The notes beneath the pieces were generated by a model. The model saw only the letters and a list, made by a program, of their open reading frames with translations. It was not told the DNA's origin and did no database searches. The position numbers were made by a program, and so were the translations under genes. Shown in pieces: positions 50,294 through 64,000 of a stretch of 64,000 nucleotides of DNA (position 1 is its first letter; every line of letters starts with the position of its first letter). Source of the DNA: Acidobacteriota bacterium (GTDB lineage Bacteria; Acidobacteriota; UBA890; WLXD01); the NCBI GenBank assembly GCA_963666215.2, contig CAXWPL010000001.1, forward strand, positions 224,001 through 288,000, read 5' to 3'.

Positions 50294-50382
50294 GGAGGGA
50301 TGGCTGAGTCAGGTTGAAGGCGGCGGTCTTGAAAACCGTTGACCGCTCACGCGGTCCGAAGGTTCGAATCCTTCTCCCTCCG
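50294..50382 (+). tRNA. tRNA-Ser(TGA)
   Basis: GGAGGGA/TCCCTCC acceptor stem, anticodon loop CT-TGA-AA, long variable arm, GGTTCGAATCC, G discriminator. Confidence 0.95.
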
Positions 50383-50444
50383 CCTTAAGCGTGCCGCATC
50401 GCCAGACCATGCGGCGATCCAATGCGACAGTCCGACTGTCAGCA

Positions 50445-50533
50445 GGAGGGGTGCTAGAGTGGACGAATAGGGCGGCCTGCTAAGCCGTTGCACGGGTCAC
50501 ACTGTGCCGTGGGTTCGAATCCCACCCCCTCCG
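50445..50533 (+). tRNA. tRNA-Ser(GCT)
   Basis: GGAGGGG/CCCCTCC acceptor stem, anticodon loop CT-GCT-AA, long variable arm, GGTTCGAATCC. Confidence 0.95.
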
Positions 50534-50745
50534 CTCTTCCTCAATAGACCACGTACTGGCGTCCGTCGGCGGCGTCCACAGATCACATGCAGAAGCGCTC
50601 CCCTGGTTTGCAGTCCGCGACCGGTGCTCCCGTCACGGAGCGCCGACAACGGTCCGTGCGTCAACACAGCGACGACACCGAGCGACTCCATAGGGAACGC
50701 TCGATCGATTCCGCTGCTCCGCCGCTATCAGCAGACCCGTCAGGC

Positions 50746-58508: not shown

Positions 58509-58865
58509 GTGCACAGCCGGCGGAAGGCCTGAGGGCGGCGGGCCAGAGAAACTCACCCTACCATTCGGCGCTGGCAGTGGACCGCCCGCTCACGCCGGCC
58601 GTATTCTGGCAACCAAGCCCCCGCGAGCAAACCGGGCCGCGACTTGACGGCCCCCTGCCCGTCTAAGAGGCTTTGCCGCAAGAAGCGTGCAACTCAAACC
58701 AGCCCCGGTACCGATGCGCGCTCGAACTCGCGAGTCTCGGGCTCGCACCCGCCGGCATCTCTAAAGAGGCCGACGCCGGATCCGAACATCCGGCCGCCGC
58801 AACTCGCGCCTCAACCGGCAGCCCTTTGGAGCACTCGTGGCCCTCGCGTCCCCGGTTTTGTCGTG

Positions 58866-61286
58866 ATGCAAGTCCCTCAGCGCCGCAGACGCCACAGGAC
58901 CCTCTTCTACAAGGAGATCCGCGCCATCTGCCGATTCTCGTATCGGCACGCGTACCTCGTGTTCGCCGCATCTCTGGTGCTCTGCGTACCGGCTTTCTTC
59001 GAGGCGCGGAAGATCGGACTCGACACCGACCTCACGCGCTTGCTTCCGTCGAGCAGTGACGCGGTCCGCTGGACCGAGGAGCTCAAGCCGGTTGTGGGCG
59101 ACGGGGGCTACTTCAGCTTTATCTTCGAGGGAAGCGACCACGACGCGCTCGTGCGCACCGTCGAGGAGACCGCGCGGCGCGTTCGGCAGCTCGACGGCAT
59201 CGACGCGATCGACTACCGCTTCCCCGTCGACTTCCTCAACAAGCACCGCTACCTGCTGATTCCCACCGCCCAGCTGCGCGACCTCGTCGATACCGTCGCC
59301 GAGTGGGAAGAACAGGCGAACCCGTTTCTTGACGATCTCGGCCTGGGCGACGAAGAGAGCGAGCCGACGAAGGACGACGACCTCGAGCGACTCATCTCTC
59401 GCTACGGCAACTTTCCCGACTACAACGAGCATCCCGACGGCGGGATGCTGGGCATGCTCGTACATCCGCGCGACGGCATCAGCAACATGGGGGCGGTGCG
59501 CGACATGTATCGCGAGATGGACGCGATCTGTGCCGAGATCGCCGCCGCAAACGGCGTTGCGTACGGCATCGGCGGTTCGCTGCGCAACCGAGTCGACGAG
59601 TTCGACGTTCTCATCGAGGACCTGGGCCGCTCGGGCACGATTGCCGTCCTCGCGATCTTGTTGACGTTGATGATCAGTTTCCGCTCGATACGTGTGCTTC
59701 CGGTACTTCTGTACCCACTGGCGGCCGGGCTGCTGTGGGCGTTCGCCTTTGTCCCCTACTTGGTGGGTGACCTCAACACGATCACGTCATTCCTGTTGAT
59801 GGTGCTGTTCGGGATGGGGGTCGACTACTCGATCCATCTGGTCAAGCGTTTTCGCCTCGAGATCGCGCACCGGGATGAGCTCGACGCGCTGATCGAGACC
59901 TTCACGTCGACGGGCCGTTCGGTGGCGACCTCCGGGGTAACGACCGCGCTGGGCCTGTCGATTCTGGCGATCTCCGATTTCCGCGGATTCTCCGACTTCG
60001 GCAGAATCGGCGGCAGCTCGATGATAATCGTGACGTTGGCGATGCTCTTCCTGATGCCGGCCATCTTGATTGTCGGCAAGCGCTGGGGTCTGGTCACGGC
60101 GCGTGTCCCCAACCTGCCCAGCAAACACCTGGCGCTGCCGCCTCGCTGGGCCGCGGCTACGGTGACGGCGCTCGTCCTCATGTCGGCCGGTGCGGGAATG
60201 ACCTGGATGAGCTTCGACTACGACTTCACCAAGGTCAGCACCTCGCTACCGGAGACCGAGGTCATTCAACAGAAGGAGCGCGACATCTATCCCTTCTTTT
60301 TCGGCCCCGCCGCGGTGTGGGTCGCCCCTGACCTCGAGACCTTGGACAGCGCGCTCGACCTCCTGTACACGGCGCGAGGCGAAGAGAACACGCCTATTGG
60401 CGCGATCTCCAGCATGCGTGACTTTGTTCCGTCAGAGAGCGAACGTCGAGAGCGGCTTCAGCTGTTGTCGGAGATCAAGGAGATCCTCGGCGGACGCTGG
60501 GTGCGCAGGGTCGAGGATCCGGATCGACTGCGGGCGATTGAGGATCTGCAGGCCTGGGTCGCTCCAGACGAGCCCATCACGGTGGAGGATCTACCTGCTT
60601 CGATTCGGCGCGGGCTCGAAGCACGCGACGGCTCCGGCGAGCTGATGCTCGCCGCCAACGTCAACGGCCCGGTTCGCGACGGCCAGCTCAGCATGCGGTT
60701 CACCGAACGTATCTACGATCTCGACATGCCCGCCGCGCTGCGTGGCCCCACGGGCGAGAAGCCGGTGCTCGCCGAGATCCTCTGGCTGGTCACGAGACAG
60801 GCGCCCCTCATTGTCGGACTCACGCTCATCGGCGTCTTTCTGCTGGTCGCGCTGGATCGCCGCTCGCTGCTGCAAACGGTGTGGGTACTGCTGCCGCTGG
60901 TCTCTGGGCTGATCCTCACGTTCGGCGTCTGCGTGGTCTTTGGCTGGAAGCTCAACTTCCTCAACATGGTCACTCTGCCAGCACTGCTGGGGATCGCGGT
61001 CGACCATGGGATCCACTACTACCGCCGTTGGCGCGAGCTCGAGCGCGACACCGCCACAACCCAGCGCGAGCTCTTCGAACCCATCACCGTGAGCACTCTG
61101 ACGACGATCATGGGTTACGCCGGCATGGCCTTCGCTCGCCACCCCGGGCTGCGCTCGATCGGTCACCTCGCGATCGTCGGCCTCGTCTGCACATGGCTGA
61201 CCGCGCTGATCCTTTTGCCCGGCCTGCTCGGCTGGCGCGCGCGCCAGAGGACGGGAGCTCCGTCGAAGACTGCTACCGTCGGCTAG
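58866..61286 (+). CDS. MMPL/RND-family transporter (HpnN/MmpL-like lipid exporter)
   Basis: Two TM bundles separated by periplasmic domains; GMGVDYSIHL and GIAVDHGIHY motifs; LDTDLTRLLP. Confidence 0.88.
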   Translation: MQVPQRRRRHRTLFYKEIRAICRFSYRHAYLVFAASLVLCVPAFFEARKIGLDTDLTRLLPSSSDAVRWTEELKPVVGDGGYFSFIFEGSDHDALVRTVEETARRVRQLDGIDAIDYRFPVDFLNKHRYLLIPTAQLRDLVDTVAEWEEQANPFLDDLGLGDEESEPTKDDDLERLISRYGNFPDYNEHPDGGMLGMLVHPRDGISNMGAVRDMYREMDAICAEIAAANGVAYGIGGSLRNRVDEFDVLIEDLGRSGTIAVLAILLTLMISFRSIRVLPVLLYPLAAGLLWAFAFVPYLVGDLNTITSFLLMVLFGMGVDYSIHLVKRFRLEIAHRDELDALIETFTSTGRSVATSGVTTALGLSILAISDFRGFSDFGRIGGSSMIIVTLAMLFLMPAILIVGKRWGLVTARVPNLPSKHLALPPRWAAATVTALVLMSAGAGMTWMSFDYDFTKVSTSLPETEVIQQKERDIYPFFFGPAAVWVAPDLETLDSALDLLYTARGEENTPIGAISSMRDFVPSESERRERLQLLSEIKEILGGRWVRRVEDPDRLRAIEDLQAWVAPDEPITVEDLPASIRRGLEARDGSGELMLAANVNGPVRDGQLSMRFTERIYDLDMPAALRGPTGEKPVLAEILWLVTRQAPLIVGLTLIGVFLLVALDRRSLLQTVWVLLPLVSGLILTFGVCVVFGWKLNFLNMVTLPALLGIAVDHGIHYYRRWRELERDTATTQRELFEPITVSTLTTIMGYAGMAFARHPGLRSIGHLAIVGLVCTWLTALILLPGLLGWRARQRTGAPSKTATVG

Positions 61287-61433
61287 TCGATCCTGCGCTC
61301 CTGGGTCCGATTGCGTTGGCCAGGCGCTCGAGCTCGCAGGTAGCTCTCTCAGGCAACCCACGGCCTCCCTGCACTCCGCACGCATTGAACGATTGCGCGC
61401 CCACAGGACCCTCACTAGACTGTCCGGCTTGGT

Positions 61434-61508
61434 TGGGACGTCGTCCAATTGGCAGGACATACGGTTCTGGTCCGTAGTATCGGGGTTCGAGTCCCTGCGT
61501 CCCAGCCA
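61434..61508 (+). tRNA. tRNA-Gln(CTG); CCA encoded
   Basis: TGGGACG/CGTCCCA acceptor stem, TACGG-TTCTGGT-CCGTA anticodon arm, GGTTCGAGTCC, GCCA end. Confidence 0.94.
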
Positions 61509-61556
61509 ATCATCTTCACGCGAGTCGGGCCACGCAGCGCCGAATCTGTTGCGCTT

Positions 61557-61836
61557 CAGCCCGTGGTGGAAGTGTGGCGGGCCTGGTTACGGCGAGTTGG
61601 GGGCGGATGCAAGGCGGCCTGACGCAGGCGATGGTTGCCCCATCGTCGAGGAAGGCCAACACCGCAGACGCCCCCAAATCGCCGTAACCCCCCGATGCAA
61701 AGATCCGGCAGGGGCCCGCGGTCGTATGCTTCGTCGTTCGTCGTCAACGATGCCTTGAGCATCGCTTCCTCCTCTCTCCTCGCCTCCGCCTCGCAAGACC
61801 CTGTCGCCAGGCCCACCACACTTCCACCACGGGCTG
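61557..61836. repeat. 280-bp element with 30-bp terminal inverted repeats and a nested long hairpin (MITE-like element or structured RNA)
   Basis: 61557-61586 pairs with 61807-61836 (29/30); 61585-61605 pairs with 61669-61689 (20/21); CTAG abuts the right end. Confidence 0.8.
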
Positions 61837-62020
61837 CTAGGGCGCGTTTCGCCGCGCCGCAGTAAGGGTCGCAGTCACCCCGCGCAGCTCAACTCCGGCG
61901 ATTGCTTCGCCTATGCTCTACCCAGGACAAGCGGTGAGCCACTGCTGTTCGCGGGAGGGAACTGCTCACCTACCGACACCCGGCCAGCGAAAACCTGAGC
62001 GCCACCACACGAGAGCGACC

Positions 62021-62287
62021 ATGAACGAGCATCACGTCGTCATCTACACATCGTCCGGGTGAGCCCCCTGTAAACAGGCGAAGGAGTTTCTTTCGCAAAG
62101 GGGGGTCGAGTTCGAAGAGATCGACATCAGTGCGTTGGACAACCCGATGGAGACGCTGCGGCGCATCACTGGGGGCATGGTGGCAACACCGACCGTCGTG
62201 ATCGGCGGCGAGGCGAAGGTCGGGTTCGATCCCGAGTGGATGGAGAGCCGACTGCAGGCGGCTGCTGAAGCGAGCGAAACCGAATAG
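62021..62287 (+). CDS. Glutaredoxin/NrdH-like selenoprotein (UxxC), 88 aa
   Basis: MNEHHVVIYTSSG-U(TGA 62060-62062)-APCKQAKEFLSQRGVEFEEIDI..ATPTVVIGG..VGFDP; Grx-fold homology continues across the TGA. Confidence 0.88.
62063..62106 (+). promoter_or_regulatory. Putative bacterial SECIS hairpin
   Basis: Directly after the UGA: lower stem CCCCCU/AGGGGG and upper stem GCGAAGG-AGUUU-CUUUCGC with a G-containing loop. Confidence 0.7.
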
Positions 62288-62341
62288 CGGCGAGCGGCCA
62301 ACTGAGCTCGACACGACCGTTCCAGCCAGAGGCGACGTCGA

Positions 62342-63235
62342 ATGCCCATACCTGCCCCGCCCTACCTGACCAGGCCTCTCTGCGTCGGTATCACGCTGGC
62401 GGCCGCCTTGGCGTCAACGCCGGCGCCACCAGCCTCCGCGACGCTCGGCAACCCCGCGCTCCGTGAGGCGGCGATGTCGACGGCCACTGCTCCGCCGCCC
62501 GAGTCTTTCTACGAACCCTGGAAGCGAGTGCTCGCCGCCTACGTCGACGATGAAGGCCTGGTCGACTACGCCGGGCTCGCCGCAGGCGGCTGGGCGGAGC
62601 TCGAGAAGTTCATGAAAGTGCTCGCCGACGCCAACCCCGACGCCTTTGCGAACGACGACGAGCGCATCGCGTTCTGGATCAACGCCTACAACGCGGTGGT
62701 GATTTGGCAAGCTGTCGAGCGCTACCCCATTGACTCGGTGCGGGATGTTGGTGCTCTGTGGGGCCTCGTCGGCGGCTTCTTCAAGAACGAGTACCGCGTC
62801 GCCGGTCGCGATATGAGCGCCGACGACATCGAGGACGGCACCCTGCGAGCCAACTGGTCTGACACGCGTATCCACTGGGCGCTCGTCTGCGCCGCTTTCG
62901 GCTGCCCCCGCCTGCTAAATCGGCCGTACCTCGCCAGCGATCTCGACGATGTGCTCACCGAGCGCGCACGCGAGTTTCTCGGGCAGCCCCGCGGCCTGCA
63001 GCTGGACCGCGCTGCCAACACGGTCTACCTGTCGAGTTATTTCGACTGGTACGCCGGCGACTTCGAGGCGGAATCAGGCGATATCGTCAGTTACGTGCTG
63101 CGCTATGCGCCAGAGAGCGACGCCGACTTCATCCGGACTCATCGTGAGCAGCTCCGCGTGCGGATCATGGACTACGACTGGGCGCTCAACGACCAGCCGA
63201 GCGGCCCACGTAGTCGACGCCCGGTGCCGCGCTAA
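62342..63235 (+). CDS. DUF547-domain protein, probably exported
   Basis: GLVDY.GL, AFWINAYNA, DDIE.G.LR, RIHWALVCAAFGCPRL, LS.YFDWY..DF, YDWALND; signal-peptide-like N-terminus. Confidence 0.88.
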   Translation: MPIPAPPYLTRPLCVGITLAAALASTPAPPASATLGNPALREAAMSTATAPPPESFYEPWKRVLAAYVDDEGLVDYAGLAAGGWAELEKFMKVLADANPDAFANDDERIAFWINAYNAVVIWQAVERYPIDSVRDVGALWGLVGGFFKNEYRVAGRDMSADDIEDGTLRANWSDTRIHWALVCAAFGCPRLLNRPYLASDLDDVLTERAREFLGQPRGLQLDRAANTVYLSSYFDWYAGDFEAESGDIVSYVLRYAPESDADFIRTHREQLRVRIMDYDWALNDQPSGPRSRRPVPR

Positions 63236-63286
63236 GCCGCTTGATTGGCGATCCCCCAGCTCTCGGGGATCCGGCTCGATACCGTC

Positions 63287-64000
63287 CTAGTGGCCCCGTG
63301 CCCGCGTGAGTCGCCGTAAAGCCCGCGCGGTTGCGTAGTCGGCAGAGGCGCGCATGCGGGCAACCTGGAGGCCAACCGCGCCGTCGCGGAAGCCCTGCTG
63401 GCCAACAAAGCGTTTGAGGAAAGCGACGGCCGGGCGCAGGAGGAGGTAGTACGGCACTTTCGAGAGCGTCACGCGTCGCCCCATGTCGTACCAATCCTCA
63501 GCCGCAAGGCGCGCATAGCGCTCCGATTTCGCGCGGAACACGGCCGCATCGTCGCCGGTGTGGTGATCAACGTGGCCGGACAGCACGGCGCTGCGTGAGG
63601 AATCGTCGAGAACCGCGAACTCGTGGACCCGGCGATCGTCGAAGCGGGCGCGGCCACGCCGAAACAGACGTAGGTGGGCTAGCTTGTACCAGCCTGAGTA
63701 GCGCACCTCGCGGCCGAACAACGTTGTCAACCGTCGTACCAGATAGCCGTCGACGAACGGACTGTCGGTTTCGAGCGCGACCTGGATCGCGGCGGCGAGC
63801 TCGCCGTTGAGGCGCTCGTCGGCATCCAAGAGAAGGATCCAATCGCCGGTCGCCTGCTCGATGGCAAACTGCTTCTGGAGTCCGAAGCGATCGAGGGTTC
63901 GTGACAGAAACTGAGCGCCGTGTCGCACCGCGACTTCGCGCGTAGCGTCGGTGGAGTTGTCGTCGACGATCACGATCTCGTCGGCGAACGGCACCGAGCC
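63287..64000 (-). CDS. GT2 glycosyltransferase, WaaE/KdtX-like beta-glucosyltransferase (5' end beyond the window)
   Basis: DEIVIVDDNSTDAT, QKQFA..ATGDWILLLDADE, RLFRR, VHE, GFRDG. Confidence 0.9.
   Translation of the reverse strand, partial: GSVPFADEIVIVDDNSTDATREVAVRHGAQFLSRTLDRFGLQKQFAIEQATGDWILLLDADERLNGELAAAIQVALETDSPFVDGYLVRRLTTLFGREVRYSGWYKLAHLRLFRRGRARFDDRRVHEFAVLDDSSRSAVLSGHVDHHTGDDAAVFRAKSERYARLAAEDWYDMGRRVTLSKVPYYLLLRPAVAFLKRFVGQQGFRDGAVGLQVARMRASADYATARALRRLTRARGH

What the first reader, a model, noticed from the sequence alone, without database searches (positions are those of the whole stretch)
62021..62287. Hidden selenoprotein: UxxC glutaredoxin with in-frame TGA and SECIS-like hairpin
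This gene is absent from the ORF track. The TGA at 62060-62062 sits exactly where the N-terminal active-site Cys of a Grx/NrdH CxxC motif belongs (YTSSG-U-APC). Grx-like sequence continues on both sides, including the cis-Pro motif ATPTVVIGG, and a two-stem hairpin follows the UGA immediately. This implies that the genome uses selenocysteine (inference).
Basis: partly seen in the sequence, partly recalled or inferred. Interest (0 to 1): 0.7.

Follow-up and report, generated by a model that had tools for sequence, protein, structure and literature searches.

The report
Unannotated selenocysteine glutaredoxin gene, confirmed
This is a real small redox-protein gene whose apparent stop codon encodes selenocysteine, a known kind of bacterial selenoprotein that ordinary gene callers cut in two.

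Summary
Window 62021-62287 (+) encodes an 88-aa glutaredoxin-fold protein. An in-frame TGA at 62060-62062 sits at the first position of the redox motif (G-U-A-P-C). All 21 orthologous loci, from 20 of the 26 genomes of the same class and 47-65% identical, carry TGA at this column. None carries Cys, and 11 of the 21 genes use TGA as their ordinary stop. A hairpin follows the UGA with 23 nt between the codon and a GUU apical loop. It is 7-8 bp long, meets the four criteria of the published bacterial SECIS model, and is kept by compensatory changes and rare codons. Three Sec-glutaredoxin genes from MAGs labelled as a deltaproteobacterium, Acidobacteria and Bacillota have the same hairpin. The genome holds selA, selB, tRNA-Sec(TCA) and a selD that itself has an in-frame TGA. 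The closest solved structure is cGrx1 of Clostridium oremlandii, natively a selenoprotein. This is therefore a new, unannotated member of a known family (Sec-Grx, UxxC), in a lineage whose closest named relative is an Acidobacteriota MAG. It is not a UXX-star protein, because it has no C-terminal Sec. The likely reductant, thioredoxin reductase rather than glutathione, is inferred. Interest is modest.

The parts
62021..62287 (+). Sec-glutaredoxin coding sequence (88 codons plus TAG stop), start ATG 62021
   Evidence: Translation with TGA=U. Pfam PF00462 E 1.6e-14. Orthologs start at equivalent Met/short N-termini, and the upstream in-frame stretch is not conserved. AF2 model pLDDT 89.2 with Grx topology.
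62060..62062 (+). UGA codon 14, read as selenocysteine (first position of UxxC)
   Evidence: TGA at this column in 21 of 21 orthologous loci, in 3 distant Sec-Grx loci, and in L046. It aligns with the first Cys of CxxC in Cys-type Grx and in PDB 7c10.
62069..62071 (+). TGT codon 17, resolving Cys of UxxC
   Evidence: Invariant in the 25-sequence alignment.
62063..62106 (+). bSECIS element. Lower stem 62063-62069 / 62100-62106; upper stem 62078-62085 / 62089-62096; apical loop GUU 62086-62088.
   Evidence: Folds give -8.3 kcal/mol for the upper hairpin alone and -21.1 for 62063-62106. There are 23 nt between the UGA and the loop. The upper stem is paired in 99% (12 sequences) and 100% (9 sequences) of cells, with compensatory pairs. 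Rare codons TTT and CTT lie in the stem.
62186..62191 (+). Thr56-Pro57 codons (cis-Pro loop of the thioredoxin fold)
   Evidence: P57 is invariant and T56 at least 90% conserved. The pair lies directly before strand beta3 (58-61) in the model.
62342..63235 (+). Downstream neighbour: DUF547 protein with a hydrophobic N-terminus and invariant CxxxxC (context, link not shown)
   Evidence: Pfam DUF547 E 1.4e-22. It lies directly downstream on the same strand in 16 of 21 orthologous loci and one gene further in 2. C183 and C188 are invariant in 16 of 16.

Best explanation
Window 62021-62287 is a functional gene for a selenocysteine-containing glutaredoxin-fold thiol/selenol-disulfide oxidoreductase. 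During translation, the UGA at codon 14 is decoded as Sec by Sec-tRNA(Sec) delivered by SelB. SelB is recruited by the mRNA hairpin that starts right after the UGA, with its apical GUU loop 23 nt downstream. Shown here: the conserved TGA, the conserved hairpin, and a complete sel machinery. Inferred from the family: the selenolate of Sec14, at the N-terminus of helix alpha1, attacks a substrate disulfide, mixed disulfide or sulfenic acid. Cys17 then resolves the intermediate to an intramolecular selenenylsulfide, which is re-reduced. Weaker inference: the reductant is more likely thioredoxin reductase than glutathione. The protein lacks the C-terminal GG-x-DD-type segment of classical Grx and instead has VGFDPEW, like NrdH/BC3987-type redoxins. 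No gshB was found in the genome, and TrxR is present.
For: Sequence: TGA in frame inside a Glutaredoxin-domain match. Conservation: 21 of 21 strong matches (E <= 2.2e-19, 47-65% identity) in 20 of the 26 genomes of the class have TGA at the same column, with varying neighbours (GUAPC, SUAPC, HUAPC, NUVPC, YUMPC, GUGSC, GUAAC, HUTPC). No Cys-form ortholog was found. TGA is not reassigned: 11 of the 21 genes end in TGA, and orthologs have TAG or TAA at equivalent ends. Machinery in the same genome: selD, selA, selB and tRNA-Sec, with selD itself carrying Sec in AGGUAAK. SelA is over its cut-off in 23 of the 26 class genomes. SECIS: the hairpin meets all four criteria quoted in PMC13188914. These are a loop of 3-9 nt with G in its first two positions (GUU), an upper stem of 4-16 bp (8 bp), a spacing of 16-37 nt (23 nt), and MFE <= -7.5 (-8.3 for the upper hairpin alone, -24.5 for the element). 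The upper stem is paired in 99.0% of cells in 12 sequences and 100% in 9. Double compensatory changes occur at pair 32-42 (AU to GC in 3) and pair 29-44 (CG to UA in 3). Slid controls pair only 33-57%. The stem uses Leu CTT in 18 of 21 and Phe TTT in 12 of 21, although these are 7.2% and 16.1% of Leu and Phe codons in 24 window ORFs. The 3 CTC cases coincide with the compensating AGR codon. The hairpin appears at the fixed position in the 49-nt MFE fold of 23 of 24 Sec forms. It appears in none of 21 Cys-type homologues. Mean z is -1.96 against -0.52. Fold: AF2 pLDDT 89.2. The best Foldseek and phmmer hit is 7c10, cGrx1 of C. oremlandii (TMt 0.87, rmsd 1.5, 37% identity; E 5.3e-9). That protein is natively a selenoprotein (PMC7642778, passages read). 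Public protein sets hold only truncated calls that begin after the TGA (P0002-P0004), as expected for a Sec gene. Reductant: gshB best 19 bits against a cut-off of 299; TrxR 385 bits.
Against: No direct evidence of expression or selenium insertion exists; everything is comparative. RNAalifold on all 21 sequences together did not recover the hairpin (consensus -2.11 kcal/mol, 0 compensatory pairs), because the stem exists in two registers. I had to split the set, 12 and 9, by the Phe codon to count pairs, so the structures were chosen after seeing the sequences. In the 9-sequence set the shuffle control was not exceeded (paired cells reached in 151 of 500 shuffles, covariation in 101 of 500). 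The lower stem is only 67-78% paired. The core of the stem is encoded by conserved residues (K-E-F-L), so part of its conservation could be protein-level. The relatives are kin, so the 21 TGAs are few independent events. Six of 26 class genomes gave no strong match; one of them is 96% complete. For the reductant, only one gshB model was searched and gshA was not. The NrdH motif comparison is recalled, not tested.
Confidence: 0.93

Rival explanations
1. The TGA is a nonsense mutation or a sequencing/assembly error in an ordinary Cys-glutaredoxin gene (a pseudogene or artefact).
For: A single window cannot exclude a TGC/TGT to TGA change. Gene callers give only fragments. One distant relative (L044) has an extra in-frame TAG just after KEFLS and may be broken.
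Against: The same TGA is present in 21 of 21 orthologous loci from 20 genomes at 47-65% identity. The reading frame is intact on both sides and no Cys form was found. The hairpin and the sel genes co-occur with it.
Confidence: 0.01
2. The UGA terminates translation, and only a downstream product (for example the 50-aa ORF 62135-62287) or nothing is made. The upstream similarity would be a relic.
For: Table 11 gives a 50-aa ORF with a TTG start. Databases hold such truncated calls.
Against: The first 13-17 codons, including beta1 (VVIYT) and the UxxC motif, are conserved as protein in all orthologs. A product lacking beta1, the active site and most of alpha1 could not form the fold modelled at pLDDT 89. 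The internal starts are not conserved.
Confidence: 0.02
3. The UGA is read through as a standard amino acid (Trp, Cys or Gly by near-cognate or reassigned decoding) rather than as Sec.
For: Some bacteria reassign UGA, and low-level near-cognate read-through of UGA exists (established knowledge, recalled).
Against: TGA is an ordinary stop in this clade: 11 of 21 of these very genes end in TGA. The genome is 65% G+C. A full Sec pathway and a SECIS-type hairpin are present. The codon sits at the catalytic Cys position, the classic Sec/Cys pair.
Confidence: 0.02
4. It belongs to the UXX-star selenoproteins (NCBIfam NF041212), which have a Sec three residues from the C-terminus. The review suggests that Sec residues in that family may act as metal-binding ligands.
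For: NF041212 is the best NCBIfam hit, 66.0 bits at its cut-off of 66.
Against: The match covers profile positions 1-65 of 70 only. The gene ends ...SETE-TAG with no TGA near the end. In orthologs that end in TGA, the next two codons are not followed by a stop. The review's table lists UXX-star families apart from plain Grx (UxxC).
Confidence: 0.02

Closest known systems
Selenoprotein glutaredoxin 1 (cGrx1) of Clostridium oremlandii OhILAs (PDB 7C10, solved as the Sec-to-Cys form); the 'Glutaredoxin (Grx), PF00462, UxxC' row in the selenoprotein table of PMC13188914
   Same: Both have a small Grx fold, about 75-88 aa. It is the best sequence hit (E 5.3e-9) and the best fold hit (TMt 0.87, rmsd 1.5 A, 37% identity). 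Sec occupies the first position of U-x-x-C (PMC7642778). Both share the K-E-F-L-S stretch after the motif and the V-G-F-D ending (alignment).
   Different: Overall identity is only 37%, and the motif is UAPC here against U(C)PxC there. The lineage differs: the closest named relative here is an Acidobacteriota MAG. cGrx1 is proposed to reduce a selenoprotein MsrA, whereas the MsrA match in this genome has no in-frame stop. I did not see the cGrx1 gene's DNA, so identity of the SECIS is inferred from the peptide only.
NCBIfam NF041212 Uxx-star family glutaredoxin-like (seleno)protein and UXX-star families 1-3
   Same: Both are Grx-like domains, and this is the best NCBIfam score, exactly at the cut-off.
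   Different: There is no C-terminal U-X-X-stop, and the profile's last 5 positions are unmatched.
NrdH-redoxins and the thioredoxin-like protein BC3987 (PDB 1H75, 4FIW, 3ZIJ); YruB family TIGR02196
   Same: They have the same short Grx fold without the classical C-terminal GSH-binding segment. TMt is 0.83-0.87 and E is 2e-8 to 1e-6. That these are TrxR-dependent is recalled knowledge.
   Different: Scores are below the family cut-offs: NrdH 45.1 against 85.75, YruB 63 against 88.55. They have Cys rather than Sec. No nrd genes lie beside this gene.
Plant class IV glutaredoxins (Grx-DEP-DUF547 fusion proteins)
   Same: A Grx domain and a DUF547 domain are linked. They are fused in plants (PMC13621322, passages read) and are adjacent genes here in 16 of 21 loci.
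   Different: Here they are separate genes. The DUF547 protein has a signal-like N-terminus, and there is no DEP domain. No interaction was tested.

Membership tests
Sec-containing glutaredoxin (Grx selenoprotein, PF00462, UxxC) | Glutaredoxin/thioredoxin fold | tested here: met
   Pfam PF00462 54.2 bits against a cut-off of 22.9. AF2 gives beta-alpha-beta-alpha-beta-beta-alpha at pLDDT 89.2. Foldseek top hits are all Grx or NrdH.
Sec-containing glutaredoxin (Grx selenoprotein, PF00462, UxxC) | In-frame UGA at the first position of the CxxC active site, aligned with Cys in homologues | tested here: met
   Codon 14 is TGA and codon 17 is TGT. The TGA aligns with the first Cys of CPYC in P0005 and of CPHC in 7c10. 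TGA is conserved in 21 of 21 orthologs.
Sec-containing glutaredoxin (Grx selenoprotein, PF00462, UxxC) | [quoted passage not shown] | tested here: met
   The criteria come from PMC13188914. Here the loop is GUU, the stem 8 bp, the spacing 23 nt, and the MFE -8.3 / -24.5 kcal/mol. The stem is conserved with compensatory changes. bSECISearch itself was not run.
Sec-containing glutaredoxin (Grx selenoprotein, PF00462, UxxC) | Sec-decoding machinery in the same genome (selA, selB, selD, tRNA-Sec) | tested here: met
   All four are over their curated cut-offs, and the anticodon is tca.
Sec-containing glutaredoxin (Grx selenoprotein, PF00462, UxxC) | Selenium actually incorporated; oxidoreductase activity | not testable with these tools
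   This needs 75Se labelling, mass spectrometry and enzyme assays.
UXX-star glutaredoxin-like selenoproteins (NF041212 and families 1-3) | Sec three residues before the stop codon (U-X-X-stop) | tested here: not met
   The gene ends SETE-TAG. No ortholog has TGA-N6-stop. Profile positions 66-70 are unmatched. The meaning of the name was inferred from the table in PMC13188914 together with the usual '*' notation for a stop codon.
NrdH-redoxin (TIGR02194) | Score over the family cut-off and an nrdHIEF context | tested here: not met
   The score is 45.1 bits against 85.75. The neighbours are an MMPL transporter, tRNA-Gln, DUF547 and a GT2 glycosyltransferase.

The most novel reading that the evidence does not exclude
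The Sec-glutaredoxin and the DUF547 protein encoded just downstream may form a conserved redox pair. The DUF547 protein has an invariant H-W-x-L-V-C-x-x-F-G-C-P motif, lies directly downstream in 16 of 21 loci, and lies one gene further in 2 more. If so, this would be the bacterial, unfused counterpart of the uncharacterised plant class IV Grx-DEP-DUF547 proteins. The Grx would reduce, or deliver selenium or electrons to, the CxxxxC site of DUF547. That would give a first functional handle on DUF547.
Probability: 0.1. Interest if true: 0.55.

Novelty: new member of a known kind. Interest (0 to 1): 0.3.

Why it matters
The result corrects an annotation gap. A conserved redox gene of a whole class is invisible to standard gene callers, and public protein sets hold only truncated pieces of it. 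The closest named relative of this class is an Acidobacteriota MAG. The result also confirms that the lineage decodes UGA as Sec: selD itself has an in-frame TGA at its active-site motif, and selA is present in 23-24 of the 26 genomes. It supplies a clean comparative example of a bSECIS that shapes the protein sequence it overlaps. The K-E-F-L-S/R/H stretch, the rare codons and the two stem registers all show this. The signature is shared with Sec-glutaredoxin genes of three MAGs carrying other lineage labels. That signature could be used to find more unannotated members. It changes nothing fundamental, because Sec-glutaredoxins have been known and biochemically studied for years.

Tried and rejected
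- **RNAalifold on all 21 sequences.** It gave no useful consensus because the stem has two registers, so I replaced it with per-class pair counts.
- **Rfam scan of 61300-62500 at E <= 10.** It found no SECIS family hit, only tRNA-Gln and chance-level hits.
- **UXX-star reading.** Rejected, because there is no C-terminal Sec.
- **Second Sec at the terminal TGA of orthologs.** Rejected: the downstream frame runs on without a nearby stop, and orthologs have TAG or TAA at equivalent ends.
- **Tandem-Sec idea (Sec-Grx serving a Sec-MsrA, as in C. oremlandii).** The MsrA match in this genome has no in-frame stop.
- **Promoter and terminator scan of 61400-63400.** It found 0 promoter-like sites and 1 terminator-like site inside the DUF547 gene on the minus strand, which is at the shuffle level and uninformative.
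- **The search of earlier findings.** It was closed.
- **Kim et al. 2011 (PMC3062254).** The paper is not held. I relied on passages of PMC7642778 and PMC13188914 instead.
- **Complex prediction for Grx with DUF547.** I did not run it. The tool takes proteins by code 11, and my report does not claim binding.

Full report
**Observation.** The window has ATG at 62021, TGA at 62060-62062 and TAG at 62285-62287 in one frame. Read with TGA=U, this gives an 88-aa protein: MNEHHVVIYTSSGUAPCKQAKEFLSQRGVEFEEIDISALDNPMETLRRITGGMVATPTVVIGGEAKVGFDPEWMESRLQAAAEASETE. Under table 11 only two fragments are listed, 61913-62062 and 62135-62287. The whole product matches Pfam Glutaredoxin over residues 6-64 (E 1.6e-14, 54.2 bits, cut-off 22.9). 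The RNA from 62055 to 62125 folds into a two-stem hairpin that starts at the UGA (-26.7 kcal/mol, z -2.7, 1 of 200 shuffles as good).

**Sec machinery.** The window's own genome (4.65 Mb, 5 contigs, 91.7% complete) holds all four components.
- selD scores 341 bits with one in-frame TGA. My translation shows that TGA inside FASAGGUAAK. From recall, this is the known Sec/Cys site of SelD.
- selA scores 518 bits.
- selB scores 340 bits, with its C-terminal part in the same frame.
- One tRNA-Sec is over the Rfam threshold at 67.8 bits. ARAGORN calls it tRNA-SeC with anticodon tca.

SelA is found in 24 of the 26 genomes of the class, and over its cut-off in 23.

**Relatives.**
- A six-frame search of 41 genomes, the window's own included, found 28 with some match.
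- The 21 strong matches (E 3e-54 to 2e-19, 47-65% identity to the window protein) lie in 20 genomes. These are the own genome, 10 of 10 others in its family, and 9 of 15 in the sister family; one genome has two copies.
- Every strong match contains a TGA. A search of the whole class, which is these same 26 genomes, gave the same 21 matches.
- The six genomes without a strong match are 55-96% complete.
- Translating each locus shows the TGA always at the first position of U-x-x-C, with varying flanks (GUAPC, SUAPC, HUAPC, NUVPC, YUMPC, GUGSC, GUAAC, HUTPC) and the frame conserved on both sides. No ortholog has Cys there.
- TGA is still a normal stop in this clade. Of these 21 genes, 11 end in TGA, 7 in TAG and 3 in TAA, and nothing resembling U-X-X-stop follows.
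- Public protein sets contain only three truncated calls that begin after the TGA (60-78% identical) and one ordinary CPYC glutaredoxin at 42%.

**Named genomes.**
- I read 26 of the 32 loci returned by the search for related loci. Four carry U-x-P-C-K-Q-A-K-E-F-L-S and 22 carry C-x-x-C.
- The four Sec loci are an Acidobacteriota MAG at 64% identity, and MAGs labelled delta proteobacterium, Acidobacteria and Bacillota at 42-46%.
- Two weaker TGA-bearing matches in other families of the phylum are also Sec-type. L046 reads GURSCEQVKEFLS. L044 reads GUMFCGRVKEFLS followed by an in-frame TAG, so it may be broken.

**The SECIS.**
- In every one of the 21 loci a hairpin lies at the same distance from the UGA.
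- It exists in two registers. Twelve sequences have Phe TTT and an 8-bp stem with a GUU loop. Nine have Phe TTC and a 7-bp stem with an AGUU loop.
- This register shift is why RNAalifold on all 21 together failed.
- Counted separately, the upper stem is paired in 99.0% of cells in the 12-sequence set and 100% in the 9-sequence set. Double compensatory changes occur at one pair in each set: AU to GC in 3 sequences, and CG to UA in 3.
- Sliding the 3' partner by 1-3 columns drops pairing to 33-57%.
- In the 12-sequence set no shuffle reached the observed pairing or covariation (0 of 500). In the 9-sequence set shuffles often did (151 and 101 of 500), so that set adds little statistically.
- The lower stem is weaker, at 67-78% paired.
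- Codon use supports selection on the RNA. Leu is CTT in 18 of 21 and Phe is TTT in 12 of 21. In 24 high-GC3 ORFs of the window (15,183 codons), CTT is 7.2% of Leu codons and TTT is 16.1% of Phe codons. The three CTC cases are exactly those where the pairing codon changed from AAG to AGR.
- In the window, the upper stem is 62078-62085 / 62089-62096, the loop is 62086-62088, and the lower stem is 62063-62069 / 62100-62106. There are 23 nt between the UGA and the loop. The MFE is -8.3 kcal/mol for the upper hairpin alone and -24.5 for 62060-62108.
- These values satisfy the four criteria of the bacterial SECIS model as quoted in the legend of Fig. 2 of PMC13188914 (passages read).
- As a control, the 49 nt from the first active-site codon were folded for Sec and Cys forms.

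| | Sec forms | Cys-type homologues |
|---|---|---|
| Fixed-position hairpin in the MFE fold | 23 of 24 | 0 of 21 |
| Mean z | -1.96 | -0.52 |
| z below -2 | 10 of 24 | 3 of 21 |

- The one Sec form that lacks the hairpin in the 49-nt fold shows it in the 66-nt fold.
- Rfam has no matching family.

**Fold and nearest known proteins.**
- An AlphaFold2 model from the 25-sequence alignment has mean pLDDT 89.2 and pTM 0.78. Its order of elements is E6-10, H15-26, E32-35, H42-50, E58-61, E64-67, H71-86. Residue 14 lies directly before helix 1, and Pro57 directly before strand 3.
- The best sequence hit (E 5.3e-9) and the best fold hit (TMt 0.87, rmsd 1.5 A, 37% identity) is PDB 7c10, 'Dithiol cGrx1'.
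- PMC7642778 (passages read) states that cGrx1 of Clostridium oremlandii is natively a selenoprotein with a U(or C)PXC motif, crystallised with Cys in place of Sec. It is proposed as the reductant of the selenoprotein MsrA.
- The selenoprotein table in the review PMC13188914 (passages read) includes the row 'Glutaredoxin (Grx), PF00462, UxxC' with a literature reference. It lists the UXX-star families separately.
- The best NCBIfam hit is NF041212 'Uxx-star' at 66.0 bits, exactly its cut-off, but over profile positions 1-65 of 70 only. The C-terminal Sec is absent, so I do not file the gene there.
- The NrdH and YruB models score below their cut-offs.

**Mechanism.**
- Shown: a conserved UGA at the catalytic position, a conserved SECIS-type hairpin, and a complete Sec pathway.
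- Inferred from the glutaredoxin/thioredoxin family: Sec14 is the attacking nucleophile, Cys17 resolves the intermediate to a selenenylsulfide, and Thr56-Pro57 form the cis-Pro loop.
- On the reductant: the protein ends VGFDPEW rather than with the GG-x-DD-type segment. That segment is seen in the CPYC homologue P0005 and in the genome's own second Grx domain.
- Prokaryotic gshB was not found (best 19 bits against a cut-off of 299), while TrxR is present (385 bits).
- I therefore favour a thioredoxin-reductase-dependent, NrdH-like mode at about even odds. gshA and other thiols were not searched.
- The MsrA match in the genome has no in-frame stop.

**Context.**
- Upstream lie an MMPL-family transporter gene (58644-61286), tRNA-Gln(ctg) at 61434-61508, and a repeated inverted-repeat element.
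- Downstream, after 54 nt, lies a DUF547 gene (62342-63235), followed by a convergent GT2 glycosyltransferase.
- The DUF547 gene follows the Sec-grx gene on the same strand in 16 of 21 orthologous loci, with one gene between them in 2 more. It was not found in 3 orthologous loci or in the 3 distant loci.
- Its orthologs keep two invariant cysteines (HWxLVCxxFGCP) and have hydrophobic, in part lipobox-like, N-termini, which suggests export.
- Plant class IV glutaredoxins are Grx-DEP-DUF547 fusions of unknown function (PMC13621322, passages read).
- This makes a functional link conceivable. But the likely different compartments and the close kinship of the genomes make it a weak lead, and no interaction test was run.

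**Verdict.** It is a new, unannotated member of a known selenoprotein family. It is conserved across a whole class whose closest named relative is an Acidobacteriota MAG, and its SECIS is well supported. Nothing categorically new was found.

Noticed in passing
window 61557-61840: A roughly 284-nt element folds into one long hairpin (-172.9 kcal/mol, z -9.2) and hits plant miRNA-precursor models on both strands at chance-level scores. It recurs in the genome: six further long copies of 160-284 nt at 80-98% identity on four contigs, plus short terminal-repeat hits. It looks like a MITE-like inverted-repeat element, inserted about 180 nt upstream of the Sec-grx start, next to tRNA-Gln.
   Followed up: partly
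own genome G000:C2:264517-265830 (-), locus L052/L086 (outside the window): A classical glutaredoxin domain (CAYC, GGFDDL) lies in the same 594-aa open frame as a thioredoxin reductase match of 385 bits. This is an apparent Grx-TrxR fusion. Relatives show the same Grx match inside open frames of 426-469 aa.
   Followed up: partly
window 62342-63235: The DUF547 protein gene directly downstream has an invariant C183/C188 motif (HWxLVCxxFGCP) and signal- or lipobox-like N-termini in 16 of 16 orthologs. DUF547 is fused to a Grx domain in plant class IV glutaredoxins.
   Followed up: partly
own genome G000:C2:219892-220839 (+), locus L001 (outside the window): selD itself carries an in-frame TGA (AGGUAAK), so it is a second selenoprotein gene that table-11 callers would split.
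   Followed up: partly
L044 (G034:C193) and L046 (G033:C70): Further Sec-type Grx genes with the VKEFLS signature occur in other families of the phylum. The L044 copy has an additional in-frame TAG right after KEFLS and may be a pseudogene or an assembly error.
   Followed up: partly
window 61434-61508 and 50294-50534: tRNA-Gln(ctg) lies directly upstream of the locus. A tandem pair tRNA-Ser(tga)/tRNA-Ser(gct) elsewhere in the window gave sub-threshold tRNA-Sec model hits of 45 and 42.6 bits. These are ordinary long-arm Ser tRNAs, not tRNA-Sec.
   Followed up: no
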